DNA of 46,766 nt from a virus (lineage: Duplodnaviria; Heunggongvirae; Uroviricota; Caudoviricetes), in IMG/VR virus record IMGVR_UViG_2877958089_000004. One strand, written 5' to 3'. The position numbers and the translations under genes were made by a program. Below the pieces are notes generated by a model, which saw only the letters and a program-made list of their open reading frames with translations, was not told where the DNA came from and searched no databases. Shown here in pieces: positions 5,320-39,307 of this stretch. Each line of letters opens with the position of its first letter. The stretch's first letter is position 1.

Positions 5320-7197
5320 TCAGTTAATCCTTATTTTTACAGCAGTTCCAGTTCTATATAACGCCCCAACACCGACACCGACACCGTAATTTTGCGGTGT
5401 ATCATCAGGCACATCCCTAAACACAAATCCTCTCAAAACATCTCCGCTATCGTATGCATAGTTATTAACATATGATCCTCCATTGACGCTCCTTGGTTTG
5501 TTAGATATAGAGTTATCTATTACTCTTGTTTCTGCGCCATCAGTATAAATAGAATACTGACCAGAGCAATCAACAAGCTGACCATCTATAGTAACTTTCC
5601 CTTTATTGTTAAGAACCTTAACAGCAGCAAGGCGCGGGCCATACATAGGGTAAGATGGATCTGGGGCATCGTTTGGGAATGTAGCATGAATAGTCCCATT
5701 AAAATATAAATCCATGTTGCTATTTGCTCCAAAAACCAATACTGCCGCATCATCATTTTTCAGGGAGCCGGCACCATTTATTTTCAACGAGCTAAATATA
5801 TTATTCACACCGTATCCAGATCCATCGCCAATAGCTACAATAGCGGCTCGTTTAAAAATATCAAACCACATACCTGTCATAGTTAACCATGACGTAGCGA
5901 CCATGTGAACACCTATACGACAATACTCTATTTTACCTCCAATAAACGAATTTCCGAAGTTTGGTCCACAAGCCACAGCCGCACCTCGATAATCATATAC
6001 ATCATCTTCGTCAAAATAAGTTTCCCCATGATAACCAATATCATTGAAATAGCAGCCTATGAAAATACTATCTGACAATGTAAATCGTGAAAGGATGCCA
6101 TTTTCTTTAAGAGTGGTAAACTGGCATAGTGTGACCCGCATTAAACCAGCCATATCAGAACGCAGACCAATTAATGCATCTCTAAAAACACAGGCCGTTA
6201 TCTCATGATTATGATAAGCAACTGTTTGCTGTGACCTGTCTCCATATTCAATACACGTGCAATTTGAAGCTGAGCCATCAATGTCAATATACGAAATAGA
6301 TGTCTGTTTTTTCTTTCTCACATCAACAATAGGATCTGCATATCCAATAGTATGGTCATCTGCTAGCTTAAGTGTAGATTTAAGATTAAAACCTGATGAA
6401 GAGTAAGCCCACGCAGATTTGATGCCTGTGAGAGCCTTGTTATCTTGCATAACTACAGGTGTCTTAATAAACAAATACCTGTCTACTAGCACCTCAACCC
6501 CATACGGACTGTTCAGAGCTTTATTTATTGGTATAGCGTTATCGGTTTCGGGACCTGGCTTAGCTCCGTAAAAAATCGCATTCAGAGGTCCATTGAAAGT
6601 CCCAGCATACAATCCATCCCTCACAACCTGACCTACCGCTCCAGTATTAATGACAATACCATCATCTGGATCTAGGTTTCGATTGCTGTAATATGTGAAA
6701 CGCCCCCCAGCTAAATCGCCAGTTTCGAATCCGTATTTCGCTATAATAATTGTTCCGTCTTCAAAATCATCTCCTGTTTCGGCAGCAATATCTACGTATC
6801 TGAATCCTAGTCCGCCAATAAGTGTATATCCATTTTCCCCTTCAATTAACCCCCTAAATTGATCTGGGTCATACTTAATTATGTTTGGATAGTAGAACTG
6901 CTGTGTACCATACGCATCATAAACAGCCATAGAATGGCCTTGCACAGTTACGAACTTGGCAATCTGTCCGTTATATACCGGATATCCAGCAGCATTAATG
7001 ATGATTGGTTGCGGAACAGGAACGTGAGAGCCGTCTTCGTTCTCCACATAAACCTGAATCTGGTTTTCAGGATTTACCGGGTCAGTGTCAATTTTACCGA
7101 TATAAATTTTGCCATTAGCTACGGCTTTAAAAGAACGCGCCATAGTGAAGAGTTGCGAAGGCATGCTTACCACAACATTTGCGGTGATATCTGACAT
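5320..7197 (-). CDS. Tailspike protein: P22-type head-binding N-terminus with a divergent receptor-binding domain
   Basis: N-terminus [46 protein letters not shown] closely matches the conserved P22/Sf6 tailspike head-binding domain; the rest differs from P22. Start placed at the ATG at 7197 with a GGAG RBS; the ORF track extends to 7245. Confidence 0.85.
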
Positions 7198-25159: not shown

Positions 25160-25597
25160 TCATCGAAGGCATTGTGTCCTGATGTACTCCTGCAGGTAGT
25201 TAACCTGCGCGGTTATCCTGTCGATTCCACTTCGGAGACGGTAATAATTGAGTTCAGCATCTGCTGTAAGTCTTGGGCTTTCTCCATCGCCCATGCCGCT
25301 GGCTCCGGTCGTTGACTTTGCACAGGTGGCGGCGACTTGCAGGCGCTTACGACCAGCAGAAACATCAGCACGAAGACTTTCGATAGTCGCGTTTGCATCA
25401 GCAAGCTCCTTTGTGTATCTGGCGTCGAGTTCTGCTACATCACGTTGACGCTTCTGCATGTCAGCGATGATGGATGTGGCTTTATCGCGCTGTTCTTTAT
25501 AGGCGGTGGCGTTATCACGGTAATGATTAACAGCCCATGACAGACAGACGATGATGCAGATAACCAGAGCGGAGATAATCGCGGTTACTCTGCTCAT
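25160..25597 (-). CDS. Rz: i-spanin Rz
   Basis: 145 aa with N-terminal TM segment and coiled-coil periplasmic domain; directly follows the endolysin. Confidence 0.85.
25213..25404 (-). CDS. Rz1: o-spanin Rz1 (lipoprotein embedded in Rz in another frame)
   Basis: Embedded ORF with lipobox LVVSAC and Pro-rich region [14 protein letters not shown]; precise start uncertain. Confidence 0.75.
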
Positions 25598-26070
25598 ACC
25601 TCAATCTCTCTGACCGTTCCGCCAGCCTCTTTGAATTTTGCAATCAGGTTGTCAGCCTTATGCTCGAACTGACCATAACCAGCGCCCGGCAGTGAAGCCC
25701 AGATATTGCTGCAACGGTCGATAGCCTGACGAATATCACCGCGATCAATCATCGGCAAAGCGCCACGCTCCTTAATCTGCTGCAATGCCACAGCGTCCTG
25801 GCTTTTGGGAGAGAAGTCTTTCAGGCCAAGCTGCTTGCGGTAGGCATCCCACCAACGGGAAAGAAGCTGGTAGCGTCCGGCGGCTGTTGATTTGAGTTTG
25901 GGGTTTAGCGTGACAAGTTTGCGAGGGTGATCGGAGTAATCAGTGAATAGCTCTCCGCCAACAATGACGTCATAACCATGATTTCTGGTTTTCTGCCGTC
26001 CGTTATCAGTTCCCTCTGACCACGCCAGCATATCGAGGAACGCCTTACGTTGATTATTGATTTCCACCAT
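25594..26070 (-). CDS. R: Endolysin, lambda R-type lytic transglycosylase
   Basis: 158 aa, [39 protein letters not shown]... essentially matches lambda R. Confidence 0.95.
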
Positions 26071-26377
26071 CTTCTACTCCGGCTTTTTTAGCAGCGAAGC
26101 GTTTGATAAGCGAACCAATCGAGTCAGTACCGATGTAGCCGATAAACACGCTCGTTATATAAGCGAGATTGCTACTTAGTCCGGCGAAGTCGAGAAGGTC
26201 ACGAATGAACCAGGCGATAATGGCGCACATCGTTGCGTCGATTACTGTTTTTGTAAACGCACCGCCATTATATCTGCCGCGAAGGTACGCCATTGCAAAC
26301 GCAAGGATTGCCCCGATGCCTTGTTCCTTTGCCGCGAGAATGGCGGCTAACAGGTCATGTTTTTCTGGCATCTTCAT
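26054..26377 (-). CDS. S: Holin, lambda S-type (class I)
   Basis: 107 aa, [39 protein letters not shown]... with dual-start MKM motif as in lambda S107/S105. Confidence 0.95.
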
Positions 26378-35546: not shown

Positions 35547-35610
35547 AATACTACAGGTATTCAAAGCAATCAATACTCAGGGTATTTTTAGTTTAAGTAC
35601 CTTAGCTATT
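35547..35610. promoter_or_regulatory. OR operator cluster with divergent PR/PRM promoters
   Basis: Two 15-bp sites of form AATAC-N5-GTATT (AATACTACAGGTATT at 35547-35561; AATACTCAGGGTATT at 35572-35586), 25-bp spacing, plus a weaker third (35596-35610), between divergent cro and cI. Confidence 0.65.
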
Positions 35611-35621
35611 AGAATTAAGCT

Positions 35622-36338
35622 ATGGAAAATAAAAAATCACTGACGACAGAACAGCTCGAAGACGCTAAGCGGCTTAAGGCTTTGTATGAGTCAAAAAAGA
35701 AAGAATTGGGAATAACCCAATACTCAATCGCTGATGAACTGGGTATCACCCAAGGAGCGGTAGGGCATTATCTTAATGGCAGAAACGCGCTAAACGTTGA
35801 GGTCGCATCTGGTTTTGCACGTTTGTTGCAAGTCTCAATTGCTGATTTTAGCCAGTCAATTGCTGCCAAGGTTGCAGAACAGGCAGAAAGCCTTAAGAGC
35901 GATGCCAACGTAAGGTATGCAGGGGAATACAGAGCAGGAAAGAGGTATCCGGTGTTAAGCAGTATCCAGGCTGGCTCGTGGTGTGAAGCATGCGAACCAT
36001 ACACCATTAAAGACATAGATGTTTGGCTTGAGTCTGACGCGCATATTCAAGGCAATGCGTTCTGGCTTAAAGTGGAAGGTGATTCAATGACGGCACCGGT
36101 TGGGTTAAGCATTCCAGAGGGAACATTTGTTCTTTTCGATACCGGAAGGGAGGCGATCAACGGCAGCCTGGTCATAGCAAAACTTTCTGACTCTAACGAA
36201 GCAACATTCAAGAAGCTGATAATCGACGGCGGAAATAAATACCTCAAGGGACTTAACCCTGCATGGCCTCTCGTGCCAATCAATGGAAACTGCAAGATTA
36301 TAGGCGTTGCAATTGAGACAAAACTAAGGCTGGTTTGA
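35622..36338 (+). CDS. cI: CI-type prophage repressor (HTH + S24 LexA-like autopeptidase)
   Basis: 238 aa; N-terminal HTH (…ITQYSIADELGITQGAVGHYLNGR…), C-terminal S24 domain with Ser (…VEGDSMTAP…) and Lys (…ATFKKL…). Confidence 0.9.
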   Translation: MENKKSLTTEQLEDAKRLKALYESKKKELGITQYSIADELGITQGAVGHYLNGRNALNVEVASGFARLLQVSIADFSQSIAAKVAEQAESLKSDANVRYAGEYRAGKRYPVLSSIQAGSWCEACEPYTIKDIDVWLESDAHIQGNAFWLKVEGDSMTAPVGLSIPEGTFVLFDTGREAINGSLVIAKLSDSNEATFKKLIIDGGNKYLKGLNPAWPLVPINGNCKIIGVAIETKLRLV

Positions 36339-36357
36339 TCACGCAAGGGGGACGCTT

Positions 36358-36726
36358 ATGGTTGGAACCGCTATAGCAAGCTTTTTTGGGATGTTGGCAA
36401 TCTCAACAATTTACGGCTTAGCGCATGCTTTTATTGCGAAATCTCTATCAGAAAAAATAAGCCAGGCTTGGGCGCATAGATCAGCTCGTTTCATGATTCT
36501 AGTGGTCATAGCAATACAAGGGATATCTGCATTTATCCTCTATGGATCAAGCTTATACCTGTTGTATCAAGGCGCGACATTTACGCCTTACACCAGTGAT
36601 TACGGAACTCTATACGATGGTAGTGAAGACATCTCTATGGCTTGGATCGTCTTTGGTTTATCTATGGCCGTGTCTGTTGTAGCAGACATCATTAAGGTAA
36701 TTCTCGTCTTAACCTTCGCTGACTAA
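36358..36726 (+). CDS. Small polytopic membrane protein immediately downstream of cI
   Basis: 122 aa, 3-4 predicted TM helices; starts 19 bp after the cI stop on the same strand, upstream of the OL/PL operators. Confidence 0.5.
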   Translation: MVGTAIASFFGMLAISTIYGLAHAFIAKSLSEKISQAWAHRSARFMILVVIAIQGISAFILYGSSLYLLYQGATFTPYTSDYGTLYDGSEDISMAWIVFGLSMAVSVVADIIKVILVLTFAD

Positions 36727-36857
36727 ACCATAATCCCGGCAGCAATAGCTATCGGGATCCACTTCACATATCCCGCATAAAAATCACTGAACAAGCAGAC
36801 AGCGAAAAAATAAATATCCTTTGTATTCATTTGTTTATCATTATTTCATCAAAAATA

Positions 36858-36897
36858 AATACCTTGGGTATTTACACAATAAAATACCTACAGTATT
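36858..36897. promoter_or_regulatory. OL operator pair with PL promoter region
   Basis: AATACCTTGGGTATT (36858-36872) and AATACCTACAGTATT (36883-36897): same 15-bp motif and 25-bp spacing as OR. Confidence 0.6.
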
Positions 36898-36944
36898 CTT
36901 TAGCCATCAGCATGACGCTGGTAGCCAAACGGAACAGGTTGGCA

Positions 36945-36986
36945 GGCTCTTTAACAGTGATGGGATTGTCCCGCCGAAATGCGGGA
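36945..36986 (+). promoter_or_regulatory. nutL-like site (boxA GGCTCTTTA plus boxB hairpin)
   Basis: boxA-like GGCTCTTTA at 36945-36953 followed 15 nt later by TCCCGCCGAAATGCGGGA, identical to the boxB of nutR on its own transcript. Confidence 0.6.
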
Positions 36987-37386
36987 ACCAAAGAGTAGTT
37001 GGCTTTGGGATTGGATGAATGAGCAGGCTGATGCTCGACCAATGTATAAACAGCGCTCATGGCAAGCAGTAACCAATCTGCGCCTCAAGACAGCGTCACT
37101 GGTAGTGCGGGCGCTCTAACCAGTAAGCCGGAGTTCAGCACCGGCCATCCAATCGCCAAAGTCAATTCCATAGGCGTTATGCAGCCGCCACCATATTCAA
37201 GAAAGCTGCACAAGAGGTAGGAGGATTTATGTGAATACTTACATTCAGTTGAGAGATTAATTAAATAGAACTGATCGAGCAGAGTCCATGAAGGCTCATA
37301 AATGCTCTTCCATCCCCGTCTAATTGGCGGGGAAGGAAACCACTTTGTAATAAAAAAATTCCAAAGTTGTTTCATCGGAGGTCAAC

Positions 37387-37692
37387 ATGACAGTAGTCAT
37401 TACATATCTGGCTGACGATAACGCCAGAAATCGCCGCAGAGCACGCAGACAGGCTCAACGTGAACAGGCAATGCAAGAACAGCGACTGGCGCGAAAAATT
37501 GCGCTAAAGCTCTCTGGTTGCGTCAGAGCAGATAAAGCAGCATCACTCGGAAGCCTTCGCTGCAAGAAGGAAGAAGAAGTCGAGAGCAAACAGAACCGTA
37601 TTTACTACCGCAAGCCACGCAGTGAAATGGGTGTGACTTGCTCGGGCCGCCAGAAGCAACGCGGAAAATCAATTCCAGCTTATTACGATTGA
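37387..37692 (+). CDS. N: N-like transcription antitermination protein
   Basis: 101 aa; Arg-rich N-terminus (NARNRRRARRQAQREQ) and C-terminal …GVTCSGRQKQRGKSIP resembling lambda N …GITCSGRQKIKGKSIP. Confidence 0.75.
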   Translation: MTVVITYLADDNARNRRRARRQAQREQAMQEQRLARKIALKLSGCVRADKAASLGSLRCKKEEEVESKQNRIYYRKPRSEMGVTCSGRQKQRGKSIPAYYD

Positions 37693-37700
37693 GGTGAGAT

Positions 37701-38150
37701 ATGGAAGAACAAGCAAACAAGATTCTCGTAGAACTACTGCAAAAAGCCAGCAATGGAATAGACGCGGCTGTTTCATTCAGCCAAGCGCAGATTCCTGATG
37801 TTGTTCATCAGTTGCTGCTATGGAATATGGTTGACAGTCTGATTAAAACATTAATAGCCATTCTAACAATCCCACTGGTTTTCTGGTTTATGAAGAAGCA
37901 GTGCCAAAGAGTTGAGACAGGTAAAATCGGTGATGAAGGATACTCATGGGAGAGGGGAAATCCCAAATACAGGCCGACAATGGTTTGGGATAGCAAAGGA
38001 GATATTAACCTTCTTATCATGCCATTGGTTGGAGTTTTGACTCTGTGGGGGATTTTTATTATTGGTGTAGTAACCAATATGACTTGGTTAAAAATTTGGC
38101 TGGCCCCAAAACTTTACCTTATCGAATATGTAGCATCATTGGTTAAGTAA
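37701..38150 (+). CDS. Membrane protein downstream of N
   Basis: 149 aa with two strongly hydrophobic segments (LIKTLIAILTIPLVFWFM; LLIMPLVGVLTLWGIFIIGVV); GAGGTGAG RBS; first gene after N. Confidence 0.5.
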   Translation: MEEQANKILVELLQKASNGIDAAVSFSQAQIPDVVHQLLLWNMVDSLIKTLIAILTIPLVFWFMKKQCQRVETGKIGDEGYSWERGNPKYRPTMVWDSKGDINLLIMPLVGVLTLWGIFIIGVVTNMTWLKIWLAPKLYLIEYVASLVK

Positions 38151-38338
38151 TTTCAGGCCGCATAACCGTCCTTTATTTTTGGCATAAACAACAGAATAAA
38201 CATAGCACTGTGTATTCATTCCAACGAGTGAATACACGGAGCAATGTCGCTCGTAACTAAACAGGAGCCGACTTGTTCTGATTATTGGAAATCTTCTTTG
38301 CCCTCCAGTGTGAGGGCAATTTTTTTGATGGAGGATAT

Positions 38339-39307
38339 ATGAGTGAAGTAACAGATTTAGTTGTTATTGAAAAAGCAAATGCAATGACTGTATTTCAGTC
38401 TGCCGACCAGATTGAAGAAATCCTTCAAAAGGTTGAACGTGAAGTTATGTCCTTTGTGCCTGATATCACAACGGCAAAGGGCAGAAAGGAGATCGCTTCT
38501 CTGGCGTATAAAGTTGCGCAGACGAAAACATATCTCGATGGTCTTGGCAAAGACCTTGTTGCTGAACTGAAGGAAATTCCAAAGCTAATTGATGCTAACC
38601 GCAAGACAGTGCGTGATCGCCTTGATGAGCTGAAAGCCAAGGCGCGCCAGCCTCTTACTGATTATGAGGAAGAACAGGCGCGGATTAAAGCCGAAGAAGA
38701 AGCTAAGGCAGCAGCTGAAGCTCTCGCAAAGCAAATTGAGTCTGACCATGAAATAGCTATTTTGATGGATCGCGAATTTGACCGCCAAAGAGAAGAGGCA
38801 AGACTCAAAGCGGAGCAGGAAAAGCGAGAGCATGAAGAACGATTAAAAAGAGAAGCTGAAGAGAAAGCCAGAGCAGAAGCCGAAGCAAAGGCAAAAGCCG
38901 AAATTGAAGCAGCAGCAAGGCGAGAAGCAGAAGCTAAGGCCGCAGCGGAACGTGCAGAGCGTGAACGCATTGAAGCCGAGCAACGAGCACAGCGCGAAGC
39001 AAAAGAGGCAGCAGAACGAGCTGAAAGAGAGAAGCAGGCAGCAATTGAAGCAGAACGCAGAAAAGCACAGGAGGAGGCTGAACGAATCCGTCGCGAGGCT
39101 GAAGCAAAAGAGCAAGCCAGAATAGCAGAAGAAAAAAGAATCAAGGACGAAGAAGAGCGTAGAGCAAAGGATAAAGCTCACCGGAAAGAAGTAAATAACA
39201 AAATACTTGCTGACCTTATCAAGGTTGGCGCATCAGAAGATGTTGCTAAAAATATCATAACAGCCATCGTAAAAGGCGAAGTATTCGCAACAAAAATAAC
39301 CTACTAA
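38339..39307 (+). CDS. Hypothetical protein with long charged coiled-coil region
   Basis: 322 aa from MSEVTDLVVIEK... (GGAGG RBS); central ~150 aa of E/A/K/R-rich repeats; the upstream in-frame ATG at 38285 is rejected. Confidence 0.55.
   Translation: MSEVTDLVVIEKANAMTVFQSADQIEEILQKVEREVMSFVPDITTAKGRKEIASLAYKVAQTKTYLDGLGKDLVAELKEIPKLIDANRKTVRDRLDELKAKARQPLTDYEEEQARIKAEEEAKAAAEALAKQIESDHEIAILMDREFDRQREEARLKAEQEKREHEERLKREAEEKARAEAEAKAKAEIEAAARREAEAKAAAERAERERIEAEQRAQREAKEAAERAEREKQAAIEAERRKAQEEAERIRREAEAKEQARIAEEKRIKDEEERRAKDKAHRKEVNNKILADLIKVGASEDVAKNIITAIVKGEVFATKITY

What the first reader, a model, noticed from the sequence alone, without database searches (positions are those of the whole stretch)
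37701..38150. Membrane protein as first gene after N (sieB-like position)
A 149-aa protein with two strongly hydrophobic segments is the first gene downstream of N in the PL operon. Lambda and P22 carry superinfection-exclusion and host-interaction genes at this position; I cannot assign a family.
Basis: partly seen in the sequence, partly recalled or inferred. Interest (0 to 1): 0.5.

Follow-up and report, generated by a model that had tools for sequence, protein, structure and literature searches.

The report
Uncharacterised phage inner-membrane hairpin protein
The 149-aa membrane protein right after N is a real, strongly conserved gene of a very large phage family (PHROG 3054, the Sf6 gene 34 family) that nobody has characterised; it is unrelated to SieB and is wired to be made during lytic growth, not in the resting lysogen.

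Summary
Observation confirmed. ORF 37701-38150 (+) encodes a 149-aa protein with two hydrophobic helices. It starts 8 nt after the stop of an N homologue, in a PL operon with OL operators, a PL-like promoter and a nutL-like site.

It is a real gene: dN/dS is about 0.17, and a profile finds 2,578 clusters (at 50% identity) of homologues.

Family: PHROG 3054 (E 2e-63), which has no Pfam, NCBIfam, PADLOC or PDB relative and no literature.

It is not SieB-like. Profile comparisons with P22 and lambda SieB, SieA, RexB and T4 Imm all give probability below 0.4%. Real sieB genes sit on the opposite strand with their own promoter, and 9 of 80 close relatives carry sieB beside this gene.

The family moves like an accessory module (RBS, gene, terminator). 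It occurs after N/ral in early-left operons, directly after Rz spanins, between structural genes, and in early regions of virulent N4-like, phi92-like, Vibrio and Pseudomonas phages. No partner gene is conserved.

Only residues 26-41 and 129-149 are nearly invariant; they are predicted periplasmic.

Function is unknown. My best guess is lytic-cycle exclusion at the inner membrane (about 0.3), with lysis or late-envelope modulation close behind (about 0.25). Interest is moderate.

The parts
36813..36897 (.). OL: three repressor-operator copies (36813-36827, 36858-36872, 36883-36897) of the form AATAYCnnnnnGTATT
   Evidence: Repeat family D1/I1/I2 shared with the OR copies at 35547-35561 and 35572-35586, between cro and cI.
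36871..36899 (+). PL-like sigma-70 promoter, TTTACA-17-TATTCT, overlapping the operators
   Evidence: It is the only promoter-like site found on either strand in 36300-38500. That it functions as a promoter is inferred.
37303..37333 (+). nutL-like site: boxA-like TGCTCTT (37303-37309) plus a boxB-like hairpin (8-bp stem, 5-nt loop, 37313-37333)
   Evidence: Pattern search. RNA fold gives -21.1 kcal/mol, z -4.44. A matching CGCTCTT lies on the minus strand just after cro (35314-35308). The assignment as nut is inferred.
37387..37692 (+). N antiterminator homologue (101 aa, arginine-rich motif NARNRRRARRQAQ)
   Evidence: PHROG 271 at E 5e-36; Pfam N_peptide at E 0.008, below cut-off. 98.6% DNA identity to the HF4s region annotated as N.
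37691..37699 (+). Shine-Dalgarno GAGGTGAGA overlapping the N stop codon; suggests translational coupling of N and the 149-aa gene
   Evidence: Read directly from the sequence. The same TGAGGTG-N-ATG arrangement occurs in a Serratia relative.
37701..38150 (+). The gene: a 149-aa two-pass inner-membrane protein, PHROG 3054 (Sf6 gene 34 family)
37701..37835 (+). Acidic N-terminal helix (residues 1-45). Residues 26-41 (FSQAQIPDVVHQLLLW) are nearly invariant. Predicted periplasmic.
   Evidence: Majority-residue fraction is 0.74 for residues 26-41, against 0.21-0.31 in the TM helices. P32 and Q37 are invariant in 96 diverse members. AF2 predicts a helix over 2-68 at pLDDT about 90.
37836..37892 (+). 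TM helix 1 (residues 46-64)
   Evidence: Kyte-Doolittle mean 2.0. Over 210 members, K+R averages 0.33 in the 15 residues before it and 3.80 in the 15 after it.
37893..38009 (+). Variable, K/R-rich loop (residues 65-103). Predicted cytoplasmic. Dispensable in 120-128-aa family members.
38010..38078 (+). TM helix 2 (residues 104-126)
   Evidence: Kyte-Doolittle mean 2.45. AF2 helix over 106-125.
38079..38147 (+). C-terminal helix (residues 127-149) carrying the family signature WLKIWLAPKLYLIEYxASLxK
   Evidence: Majority-residue fraction 0.79, conserved on all helix faces (conservation moment 0.12). K137 is invariant.
38155..38180 (+). Weakened terminator-like hairpin (AGGCCG-CATAAC-CGTCCT, one mismatch) plus TTATTTTT, 4 nt after the stop codon
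   Evidence: Most close relatives have an intact AGGCCGCATAGTCGGCCT followed by a T-run at this position.
38208..38239 (+). 14-bp hairpin (loop CAAC) with no T-run, inside a strongly structured intergenic region
   Evidence: The RNA fold of 38151-38338 gives z -4.56. The region corresponds to the 'boundary sequence' annotated in Sf6 and CUS-3.
38298..38326 (+). Intrinsic terminator (8-bp stem, T7). It forms the end of the mobile module; the equivalent site is annotated tL2A in Sf6.
   Evidence: Terminator scan. Sf6 annotation. In 54 of 80 related loci, DNA homology to the window reaches or passes 38323-38338 (48 stop within that span, 6 run further).

Best explanation
Identity (near certain). 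This is a genuine gene for a small inner-membrane protein built as one long helical hairpin: an acidic N-terminal helix running into TM1, a variable basic loop, then TM2 running into a C-terminal helix. It belongs to the very large, uncharacterised PHROG 3054 family (Sf6 gene 34 family).

Wiring (inferred from sequence). In this P22-like E. coli prophage the gene is translationally coupled to N. It lies upstream of the first terminator-like hairpins of the PL operon. It would therefore be made together with N immediately after infection or induction, and not in the cI-repressed lysogen.

Mode of action (inferred). It works on its own. No partner gene is conserved, and the module of RBS, gene and terminator hops between phage genomes. 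It acts through the two almost invariant extramembrane helices (residues 26-41 and 129-149). These are conserved on every face, so they are probably buried in a homo-oligomer or in a conserved host envelope component. The positive-inside rule places them on the periplasmic face.

Function (a committed guess, probability about 0.3). It protects the already infected cell at the inner membrane during lytic growth, that is, it excludes superinfecting phage DNA in the manner of T4 Imm. It would not be a prophage-expressed abortive-infection protein of the SieB type.
For: Real gene and family.

Structure: the AF2 model built on 96 homologues has pLDDT 89.3 and pTM 0.67, with helices 2-68, 106-125 and 128-148.

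Topology: K+R averages 0.33 in the 15 residues before TM1 and 3.80 in the 15 after it; the N-tail carries 5.6 D/E against 2.4 K/R on average.

Conservation is confined to the two tails, on all helix faces.

Operon wiring:
- OL, PL and nutL.
- An 8-nt gap with the SD over the N stop codon.
- No other promoter-like site and no terminator-like site between PL and the gene.
- Terminators directly behind the gene.

Autonomy and mobility:
- Homology breaks at 37666/37689 on the left and at 38323-38338 on the right.
- In 80 close relatives the gene follows at least four N types, with or without ral, gp36 or sieB in between.
- It also occurs in virulent phages: phi92 gp220, N4-like, Vibrio and Pseudomonas phages.
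- It occurs in late-operon and opposite-strand positions too.

The setting suits exclusion-type functions. The N-to-cIII interval holds sieB, ral and gene 17 in P22 and lambda. T4 Imm is likewise a small two-TM protein encoded outside the lysis genes, and it keeps superinfecting DNA out.
Against: No experiment exists. No member of the family has a described function.

There is no sequence or fold relation to any known exclusion protein:
- SieB, SieA, RexB and Imm all score below 0.4% probability.
- No exclusion-annotated PHROG matches at E <= 1.
- No PADLOC model matches.

Exclusion proteins usually match a particular DNA-entry route. These tails are nearly invariant across podo-, myo- and siphophage types, which points to a host or self target instead.

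In 9 of the 44 same-strand upstream neighbours scanned (from 62 non-redundant loci), the gene follows an Rz spanin closely, with overlapping stop and start in several of them. In some P22-likes it sits in the late operon. Late-only synthesis fits exclusion poorly.

The topology rests on charge statistics only. The immediate-early timing rests on consensus scans only, and Rho-dependent termination cannot be seen with these tools.
Confidence: 0.3

Rival explanations
1. Lysis or late-envelope modulator. The protein tunes the last steps of infection from the inner membrane. It could hold off premature holin triggering, as an antiholin or lysis-inhibition factor does, or it could assist or restrain spanin-mediated envelope disruption. 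When it is made early, as here, it simply persists until late.
For: The commonest identifiable upstream neighbour is an Rz-like spanin: 9 of the 44 same-strand upstream neighbours scanned (from 62 non-redundant loci), drawn from four different spanin PHROGs (13, 214, 312, 17598).

About 10 of 37 species-level genomes have the gene right after Rz. In Proteus, Providencia and Pantoea its start overlaps the Rz/Rz1 stop.

The only time window common to early-operon and late-operon members is late infection.

The predicted periplasmic helical hairpin resembles the periplasmic coiled coil of i-spanins in general shape only.

From my own knowledge, T4 rI shows that lysis regulators can be encoded far from the holin and expressed early.
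Against: In this window the lysis cassette (holin, endolysin, Rz at 25160-26377, minus strand) is about 11 kb away in another operon.

In the virulent phages examined, the genes flanking this gene are early or DNA-metabolism genes, with no lysis gene among them. In the one whole genome read, Vibrio phage 466E53-1, the only lysis-type gene annotated (peptidase M15) lies about 11 kb away.

The space after Rz is one of the regions where lambdoid phages keep accessory genes (in P22, rha and three small ORFs lie there; that it is a general hot-spot is my own knowledge). A 15-25% share may therefore reflect hot-spot occupancy only.

The holins of the carrier phages belong to different families, yet the tails are invariant.

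There is no dual-start motif and no charged C-terminus, and no Pfam holin family matches.
Confidence: 0.25
2. Counter-defence factor. It neutralises a membrane-acting abortive-infection or exclusion system of the host or of resident prophages, as T4 rII does against Rex or P22 gene 17 against Fels-2.
For: It is made with N at the very start of infection. It sits among ral (anti-restriction), abc2-type and gene-17-type genes in the early-left accessory region. It is present in virulent phages, in early regions. Its patchy, mobile distribution is typical of arms-race genes.
Against: Members placed in late operons or behind Rz would be made too late to counter a defence. The extreme conservation of the tails is unlike fast-evolving anti-defence proteins. 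No target can be named.
Confidence: 0.15
3. Host take-over factor. The conserved tails bind and inhibit, or redirect, a conserved proteobacterial inner-membrane machine such as FtsH/HflKC, Sec/YidC, the divisome or a transport complex. This would parallel the neighbouring cIII (FtsH inhibitor) and Kil (division inhibitor).
For: The tails are invariant on all faces across phages of Gamma- and Betaproteobacteria, which suits a conserved host target. It is a neighbour of cIII and kil in the same operon. No phage partner is conserved.
Against: The gene is accessory and often absent: near-identical DNA is present in 237 of 5,426 E. coli genomes. No similarity exists to any known inhibitor. This is pure inference.
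Confidence: 0.12
4. One reading: a SieB-like superinfection-exclusion (abortive-infection) protein expressed by the prophage.
For: It has the same neighbourhood as sieB in lambda and P22 and is a small membrane protein.
Against: There is no homology. It is on the opposite strand to true sieB genes and has no promoter of its own. It co-occurs with true sieB. It is present in obligately lytic phages. PL is operator-controlled.
Confidence: 0.03
5. A chance ORF or non-coding leader of the downstream gene.
For: The window contains many long spurious ORFs.
Against: Full-length homologues number in the thousands. dN/dS is 0.17. The start and RBS are conserved. The AF2 model is confident.
Confidence: 0.01

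Closest known systems
Shigella phage Sf6 gene 34 protein; HF4s_0037 'TM helix-containing protein'; phi92 gp220 (all PHROG 3054)
   Same: True homologues. HF4s is 98% identical, with the same N-gene-gp33 order. Sf6 gene 34 is about 50% identical and lies in the same operon, followed by the same terminator and gene 33. phi92 gp220 is about 28% identical with the same end motifs.
   Different: None has a known function. In Sf6, gene 36 and ral lie between N and the gene. In phi92 the gene sits before an AAA ATPase gene in a virulent myovirus.
T4 Imm (immunity to superinfection)
   Same: Imm is a small protein with two hydrophobic helices, encoded by a lytic-cycle gene away from the lysis genes. 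It acts alone at the inner membrane, so that superinfecting DNA stays in the periplasm (annotation and sequence). This is the functional analogy I commit to.
   Different: There is no sequence relation (hhalign probability 0.17%). Imm is 83 aa with a 6-residue loop and has no long conserved extramembrane helices. Imm is confined to T4-like phages, whereas PHROG 3054 spans many phage types.
SieB of P22 and lambda
   Same: It lies in the same genome neighbourhood, next to N / gene 24, and is a hydrophobic protein.
   Different: It is unrelated in sequence. It is 184-195 aa. It lies on the opposite strand with its own promoter and, in P22, an internal esc start. It is annotated as excluding other phages; that it is expressed in the lysogen and acts by abortive infection is my own knowledge. 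It co-occurs with the present gene.
P22 SieA and HK97 gp15 (prophage inner-membrane proteins that block DNA entry; HK97 gp15 is from my own knowledge)
   Same: Small inner-membrane proteins encoded as inserted accessory genes.
   Different: There is no homology to SieA (probability 0.12%). SieA has its own promoter, and I take both to be expressed from the prophage (my own knowledge). The present gene has no promoter of its own in this window. HK97 gp15 was not tested here.
Accessory membrane proteins of lysis cassettes: T4 RI, P2 LysA, and corynephage LysZ (bioRxiv 10.1101/2025.06.24.661397)
   Same: In part of the family the gene is the last, translationally coupled gene of the holin-endolysin-Rz/Rz1 cassette. 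LysZ shows that extra membrane proteins of lysis cassettes can have new envelope targets.
   Different: In this window the gene is in the early-left operon, not in the lysis cassette. No sequence comparison with RI, LysA or LysZ was possible here. LysZ belongs to phages of Corynebacteriales.

Membership tests
PHROG 3054 (Sf6 gene 34 family) | Full-length match to the family HMM | tested here: met
   E 2e-63, residues 1-149 against profile positions 1-137 of 137. All 96 diverse homologues hit the same PHROG.
PHROG 3054 (Sf6 gene 34 family) | Signature ends, F.QAQIPDV[IV].QLL.W and W[LV][KQ]IW[IL]APK[LIV][YW]L[IL]EYAASL.K, flanking two TM helices | tested here: met
   Both motifs are present. 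P32, Q37 and K137 are invariant in 96 members.
SieB | Sequence homology to P22 or lambda SieB | tested here: not met
   hhalign probability is 0.35% for P22 SieB and 0.12% for lambda SieB. No exclusion-annotated PHROG matches at E <= 1.
SieB | Own promoter, transcribed against PL | tested here: not met
   The gene is on the same strand as N, 8 nt behind it, with no promoter-like site. True sieB is on the opposite strand, with a mapped promoter annotated in P22.
SieB | Mutually exclusive with other occupants of the slot (that is, an allele of sieB) | tested here: not met
   It co-occurs with sieB in 9 of 80 related loci and in phage Oslo.
SieB | Abortive-infection phenotype against superinfecting phage | not testable with these tools
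   This needs infection assays.
SieA / RexB | Sequence homology | tested here: not met
   hhalign probability is 0.12% for SieA and 0.19% for RexB.
T4 Imm-type immunity protein | Sequence homology to Imm | tested here: not met
   hhalign probability is 0.17%.
T4 Imm-type immunity protein | Small protein with two TM helices, made during lytic growth | tested here: inconclusive
   Two TM helices are shown. Lytic-cycle expression is only inferred from the operon layout.
T4 Imm-type immunity protein | Blocks entry of superinfecting DNA | not testable with these tools
   This needs DNA-entry or K+-efflux assays.
Holin / antiholin | Encoded in the lysis cassette with the endolysin | tested here: not met
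   The window's holin (PHROG 126), endolysin and Rz are at 25160-26377 on the minus strand. Some relatives, however, do follow Rz directly.
Holin / antiholin | Match to a holin family; charged C-terminal tail; dual-start motif | tested here: not met
   No Pfam or PHROG holin hit for the protein or for 96 homologues. The C-terminus is a hydrophobic conserved helix. There is a single conserved start.
Moron (autonomous inserted transcription unit) | Present or absent between otherwise conserved neighbours | tested here: met
   Homology breaks sit 12-35 nt before the ATG and just after the terminator. Flanking genes vary.
Moron (autonomous inserted transcription unit) | Own terminator | tested here: met
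   Terminator-like hairpins at 38155-38180 (weakened) and 38298-38326. 71 of 108 distinct family genes have one within 220 nt downstream.
Moron (autonomous inserted transcription unit) | Own promoter | tested here: not met
   None in the window. The mobile unit starts only 12-35 nt upstream of the ATG. A Serratia relative on the opposite strand probably has one.

The most novel reading that the evidence does not exclude
PHROG 3054 proteins are a new, mechanistically distinct class of lytic-cycle inner-membrane effectors shared by temperate P22-like and lambdoid phages and by virulent N4-like, phi92-like, Vibrio and Pseudomonas phages. A periplasm-facing helical hairpin, conserved on all faces, would dock onto a conserved proteobacterial envelope component. 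It would either shut the inner membrane to incoming phage DNA or control the final envelope-disruption step. Either way it would be a mechanism unrelated to SieA, SieB, Rex, Imm, holins or spanins.
Probability: 0.3. Interest if true: 0.6.

Novelty: new member of a known kind. Interest (0 to 1): 0.4.

Why it matters
The gene itself is ordinary. Proteins at least 90% identical to it already form a database cluster of 554 sequences, and it is annotated, without function, in HF4s and Sf6.

What is worth noting is the family. It has thousands of members in phages of Gamma- and Betaproteobacteria, two nearly invariant 16-21-residue motifs, no Pfam entry, no structure and no paper. It sits in places where phages keep host-interaction genes.

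Here it appears to share the immediate-early PL transcript with N. Only N holds that position in lambda, so the phage seems to want the protein in the membrane within minutes of infection.

A single small gene that is easy to delete in Sf6, HF4s or a P22-like prophage, and easy to express in E. coli, could reveal either a new exclusion mechanism or a new layer of lysis control.

Tried and rejected
Searches that found nothing:
- Pfam, NCBIfam and PADLOC give no hit for the protein. Pfam gives none for 96 homologues.
- A PDB sequence profile search gives nothing below E 1.2.
- Foldseek against PDB with the first, poor model (pLDDT 67.7) was meaningless.
- BFVD returned only uncharacterised family members.
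- afdb50 was not available.
- Five full-text literature searches and three of the papers read for this (phage L, epsilon34, lambdoid co-transfer) yielded nothing on this family. Two further papers (corynephage LysZ, CSP1 lysis suppression) gave only analogies.
- Rfam over the whole window found only a tRNA.

Hypotheses rejected:
- Homology to SieB, SieA, RexB or Imm.
- A conserved partnership with the downstream coiled-coil gene. The proteins after the gene in N4-like phages are unrelated to the window's gp33-like protein, and neighbours differ widely.
- A homologue in P22 or a paralogue elsewhere in the window.
- The spanin linkage as proof of a lysis role. I considered it and downgraded it, because the post-Rz region is a general accessory-gene hot-spot.

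Names given by sources were all 'hypothetical protein'.
Full report
**What is in the sequence**

The ORF 37701-38150 (+) starts at ATG and encodes 149 aa. A Shine-Dalgarno GAGGTGAGA overlaps the TGA of the preceding gene, which ends 8 nt before the ATG. Kyte-Doolittle 19-residue means peak at 2.0 (residues 46-64) and 2.45 (residues 106-124), with a strongly hydrophilic stretch between them.

The preceding gene (37387-37692) is an N homologue: PHROG 271 at E 5e-36, and a weak Pfam N_peptide hit.

The early-left operon is complete:
- cI (Peptidase_S24 plus HTH) lies at 35622-36338.
- Operator copies of the form AATAYCnnnnnGTATT occur both at OR (35547-35586) and at OL (36813-36897).
- The only promoter-like site in 36300-38500 is TTTACA-17-TATTCT at 36871-36899, inside OL.
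- A boxA-like TGCTCTT followed by a stable 8-bp/5-nt-loop hairpin lies at 37303-37333.
- cIII, kil and erf lie downstream.

**It is a real gene**

ORF length alone is weak evidence, since there are 91 ORFs of at least 90 aa in the window. Other evidence is strong:
- The word-indexed search found 462 homologues.
- A profile of 23 homologues scored against 1.84 billion cluster representatives found 2,578 at E <= 1e-3 and 1,151 at E <= 1e-10.
- Against 20 alleles with dS > 0.1, the median dN/dS is 0.17.
- Near-identical DNA occurs in 237 of 5,426 complete E. coli genomes, always annotated 'hypothetical protein'.
- The window itself is a P22-like prophage of E. coli. The best phage match is Lederbergvirus HF4s at 98.6% identity over N plus this gene.

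**Family assignment**

The protein matches PHROG 3054 end to end (E 2e-63). That family has no annotated function, and all 96 diverse homologues hit it too.

Nothing else matches:
- Pfam, NCBIfam and PADLOC.
- PDB sequences.
- Five full-text literature searches, including locus tags and the PHROG number.

Annotated members include Sf6 gene 34, HF4s_0037 ('TM helix-containing protein'), Oslo AMBK_46 and phi92 gp220.

**Anatomy of the protein**

Conservation is strikingly uneven across 96 members that are 30-60% identical to the window protein. The fraction of sequences carrying the majority residue is:

| Segment | Fraction |
|---|---|
| Residues 26-41 (FSQAQIPDVVHQLLLW) | 0.74 |
| Residues 129-149 (WLKIWLAPKLYLIEYxASLxK) | 0.79 |
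| The two TM helices | 0.21-0.31 |
| The loop | 0.24 |

P32, Q37 and K137 are invariant. In both conserved segments every helical face is conserved (conservation moment 0.12-0.14). This argues for burial in an oligomer or in a partner, and against a simple amphipathic membrane-surface helix.

The loop is dispensable: 120-128-aa members lack most of it.

With the deep alignment, AlphaFold2 gives a confident model (pLDDT 89.3, pTM 0.67). It is one long helical hairpin, with helix 2-68 (N-tail plus TM1), a loop, then helices 106-125 and 128-148.

Over 210 members, the 15 residues before TM1 carry 0.33 K+R on average and the 15 after it carry 3.80. The N-tail is acidic, with 5.6 D/E against 2.4 K/R. 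By the positive-inside rule the loop is cytoplasmic and both conserved tails face the periplasm. This is a prediction, not a measurement.

**Testing the SieB idea**

- P22 and lambda SieB are unrelated in sequence (hhalign probability 0.35% and 0.12%).
- So are P22 SieA (0.12%), lambda RexB (0.19%) and T4 Imm (0.17%).
- In P22, lambda and Oslo, sieB lies on the strand opposite to N; the P22 record also annotates a mapped sieB promoter and an internal esc start. The present gene is on the N strand with no promoter-like site of its own.
- Among 80 close relatives from IMG/VR, 9 carry a true sieB between N and this gene, and 15 carry ral. At least four different N types precede the gene. Only 15 of the 80 have it directly behind N.

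It is therefore a separate module of the N-to-cIII accessory interval. It is neither a sieB homologue nor a sieB substitute.

**How it is wired here**

No terminator-like site lies between PL and the gene. Several structures follow it:
- Four nt after its stop codon sits a hairpin plus T-run. This is intact in most relatives (AGGCCGCATAGTCGGCCT-TTATTTTT) and weakened by one mismatch in the window (38155-38180).
- A 14-bp hairpin follows (38208-38239).
- Then comes a clean terminator (38298-38326), annotated tL2A in Sf6.

DNA homology between the window and the 80 relatives breaks at 37666 or 37689 on the left. In 54 of the 80 it reaches or passes 38323-38338 on the right (48 stop within that span). 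The mobile unit is thus RBS plus gene plus terminator, without a promoter.

My inference is that in this phage the protein is made from the same pre-antitermination PL transcript as N. That would be immediately on infection or induction, and not in the cI-repressed lysogen. Rho-dependent events and weak promoters cannot be excluded with these tools.

**The family elsewhere**

This is the result that most changes the picture.

Hosts and taxa:
- tblastn finds the family in 181 phage records.
- Many are virulent: phi92-like myoviruses, where the gene sits before an AAA ATPase gene; N4-like Schitoviridae, where it sits next to RNA polymerase or thymidylate synthase genes; and Vibrio and Pseudomonas phages.
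- A strict motif scan of one genome per bacterial species found it in many Enterobacterales genera. It also found it in Alcaligenaceae, Oxalobacter, Uliginosibacterium, Thalassotalea and Pseudomonas.

Genomic contexts:
- Early-left operons after cro/cI/N: about 10 of 37 species-level loci.
- Directly behind an Rz spanin: about 10 of 37. In Proteus, Providencia and Pantoea the start overlaps the Rz/Rz1 stop.
- Inside the P22-type late operon, between genes 4 and 10.
- A two-gene opposite-strand unit between terL and portal, with its own terminators, in Serratia and Rahnella.

In 62 non-redundant loci the upstream neighbour is on the same strand in 51, and within 20 nt in 27. I scanned 44 of those same-strand upstream neighbours against PHROGs. 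The commonest identifiable neighbour is a spanin (9 of the 44, from four different spanin PHROGs). Otherwise the neighbours are heterogeneous: N, a Nun-like protein, ral, NinG, thymidylate synthase and methylases. No partner gene is conserved.

**What it most likely does**

Shown:
- It is a real gene.
- Its family is PHROG 3054.
- It has two hydrophobic helices.
- Conservation is confined to the two tails.
- The module is autonomous and mobile.
- It has no relation to known exclusion proteins.
- It is present in lytic as well as temperate phages.

Inferred:
- N-out/C-out topology.
- Immediate-early expression.
- Action through the tails on a conserved host component or by self-assembly.

Function is a guess. 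I commit to a lytic-cycle guard at the inner membrane that excludes superinfecting DNA as T4 Imm does (probability about 0.3). My reasons are these:
- The gene lives in slots used for exclusion and anti-restriction genes.
- It is made at once with N here.
- It occurs in early regions of virulent phages.
- It has the general make-up of Imm.

The close rival (about 0.25) is a lysis or late-envelope modulator. It is supported by the recurrent, translationally coupled position behind spanins of several families. It is also supported by the fact that late infection is the only time window common to all contexts. It is weakened by the distance from lysis genes here and by their absence from the stretches examined around the gene in virulent phages. 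It is also weakened because the post-Rz region is a general accessory-gene hot-spot.

Counter-defence (about 0.15) and host take-over (about 0.12) remain open. A SieB-like prophage abortive-infection role is very unlikely (about 0.03).

**Verdict**

The SieB analogy does not hold, and a family can be assigned, though it has no known function.

The gene is a typical member of a catalogued but unstudied family, so novelty is modest for this locus. The family as a whole is an attractive, cheap experimental target. Interest: 0.4.

Noticed in passing
window 36358-36726 (+): A 122-aa multi-TM ORF starts 20 nt after the cI stop codon, on the cI strand. This is the position of rexA/rexB in lambda, so it is probably co-transcribed with cI in the lysogen. 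It matches PHROG 6534 (unknown function, E 6e-79) and shows no similarity to RexB. It is a better candidate for prophage-expressed exclusion than the 149-aa gene.
   Followed up: partly
window 38151-38338 (+): The 188-nt spacer after the gene is unusually structured (z -4.56). It holds a weakened terminator (38155-38180), a 14-bp hairpin with no T-run (38208-38239) and a clean terminator (38298-38326). The hairpin region corresponds to the 'boundary sequence' (bsq) features annotated in Sf6 and CUS-3. Its role is unknown; it could be an RNase III site, a transcript stabiliser or a recombination joint.
   Followed up: partly
window 38285/38339-39307 (+): The next gene encodes a 322-aa E/K/A-rich coiled-coil protein, 99-100% identical to Sf6 gp33 (PHROG 1376, unknown function). 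It is labelled 'TolA' by PGAP and 'Agt/Gam antitoxin' in HF4s. The mechanical ORF start (TTG 38285) lies upstream of the terminator. The real start is almost certainly ATG 38339, behind a GGAGG.
   Followed up: partly
window 36900-37300: The PL leader between OL and nutL is about 400 nt long, and HF4s lacks it (HF4s homology starts at 37372). It contains a 96-aa minus-strand ORF (37085-37375) with no PHROG hit, and short plus-strand ORFs. I do not know what it is.
   Followed up: no
window 36723-36830 (-): A 35-aa hydrophobic minus-strand ORF lies between the 122-aa gene and OL. HF4s annotates a 108-nt minus-strand ORF of the same length ('putative phage protein') at the corresponding position. 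It has no PHROG hit.
   Followed up: no
L102 5440-6480 (Serratia marcescens prophage): Here the family gene forms a self-contained opposite-strand unit between terL and portal. The unit has a promoter-like region, a roughly 250-nt leader ending in a terminator (5762-5778), a 62-aa ORF, the family gene behind a TGAGGTG junction like the one in the window, and a bidirectional terminator (6443-6460). The leader with its terminator looks like an attenuator or a small RNA.
   Followed up: partly
window 37701-37824, against E. coli genomes: Many E. coli genomes match only the first 110-124 nt of the gene, at about 94-95% identity. Divergent alleles (for example the 120-aa N7/SPN9CC type, 50% protein identity) therefore seem to share a DNA-conserved 5' end. 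This could be a recombination joint inside the gene.
   Followed up: no
L094, L096, L097 (P22-like contigs): Family members 40-50% identical to the window protein sit inside the late operon between gene 4 (P22_Tail-4) and gene 10 (Phage_stabilise), just ahead of the tail-needle and ejection-protein genes. In L094 and L097 the start overlaps the stop of a 166-184-aa ORF of unknown function.
   Followed up: partly
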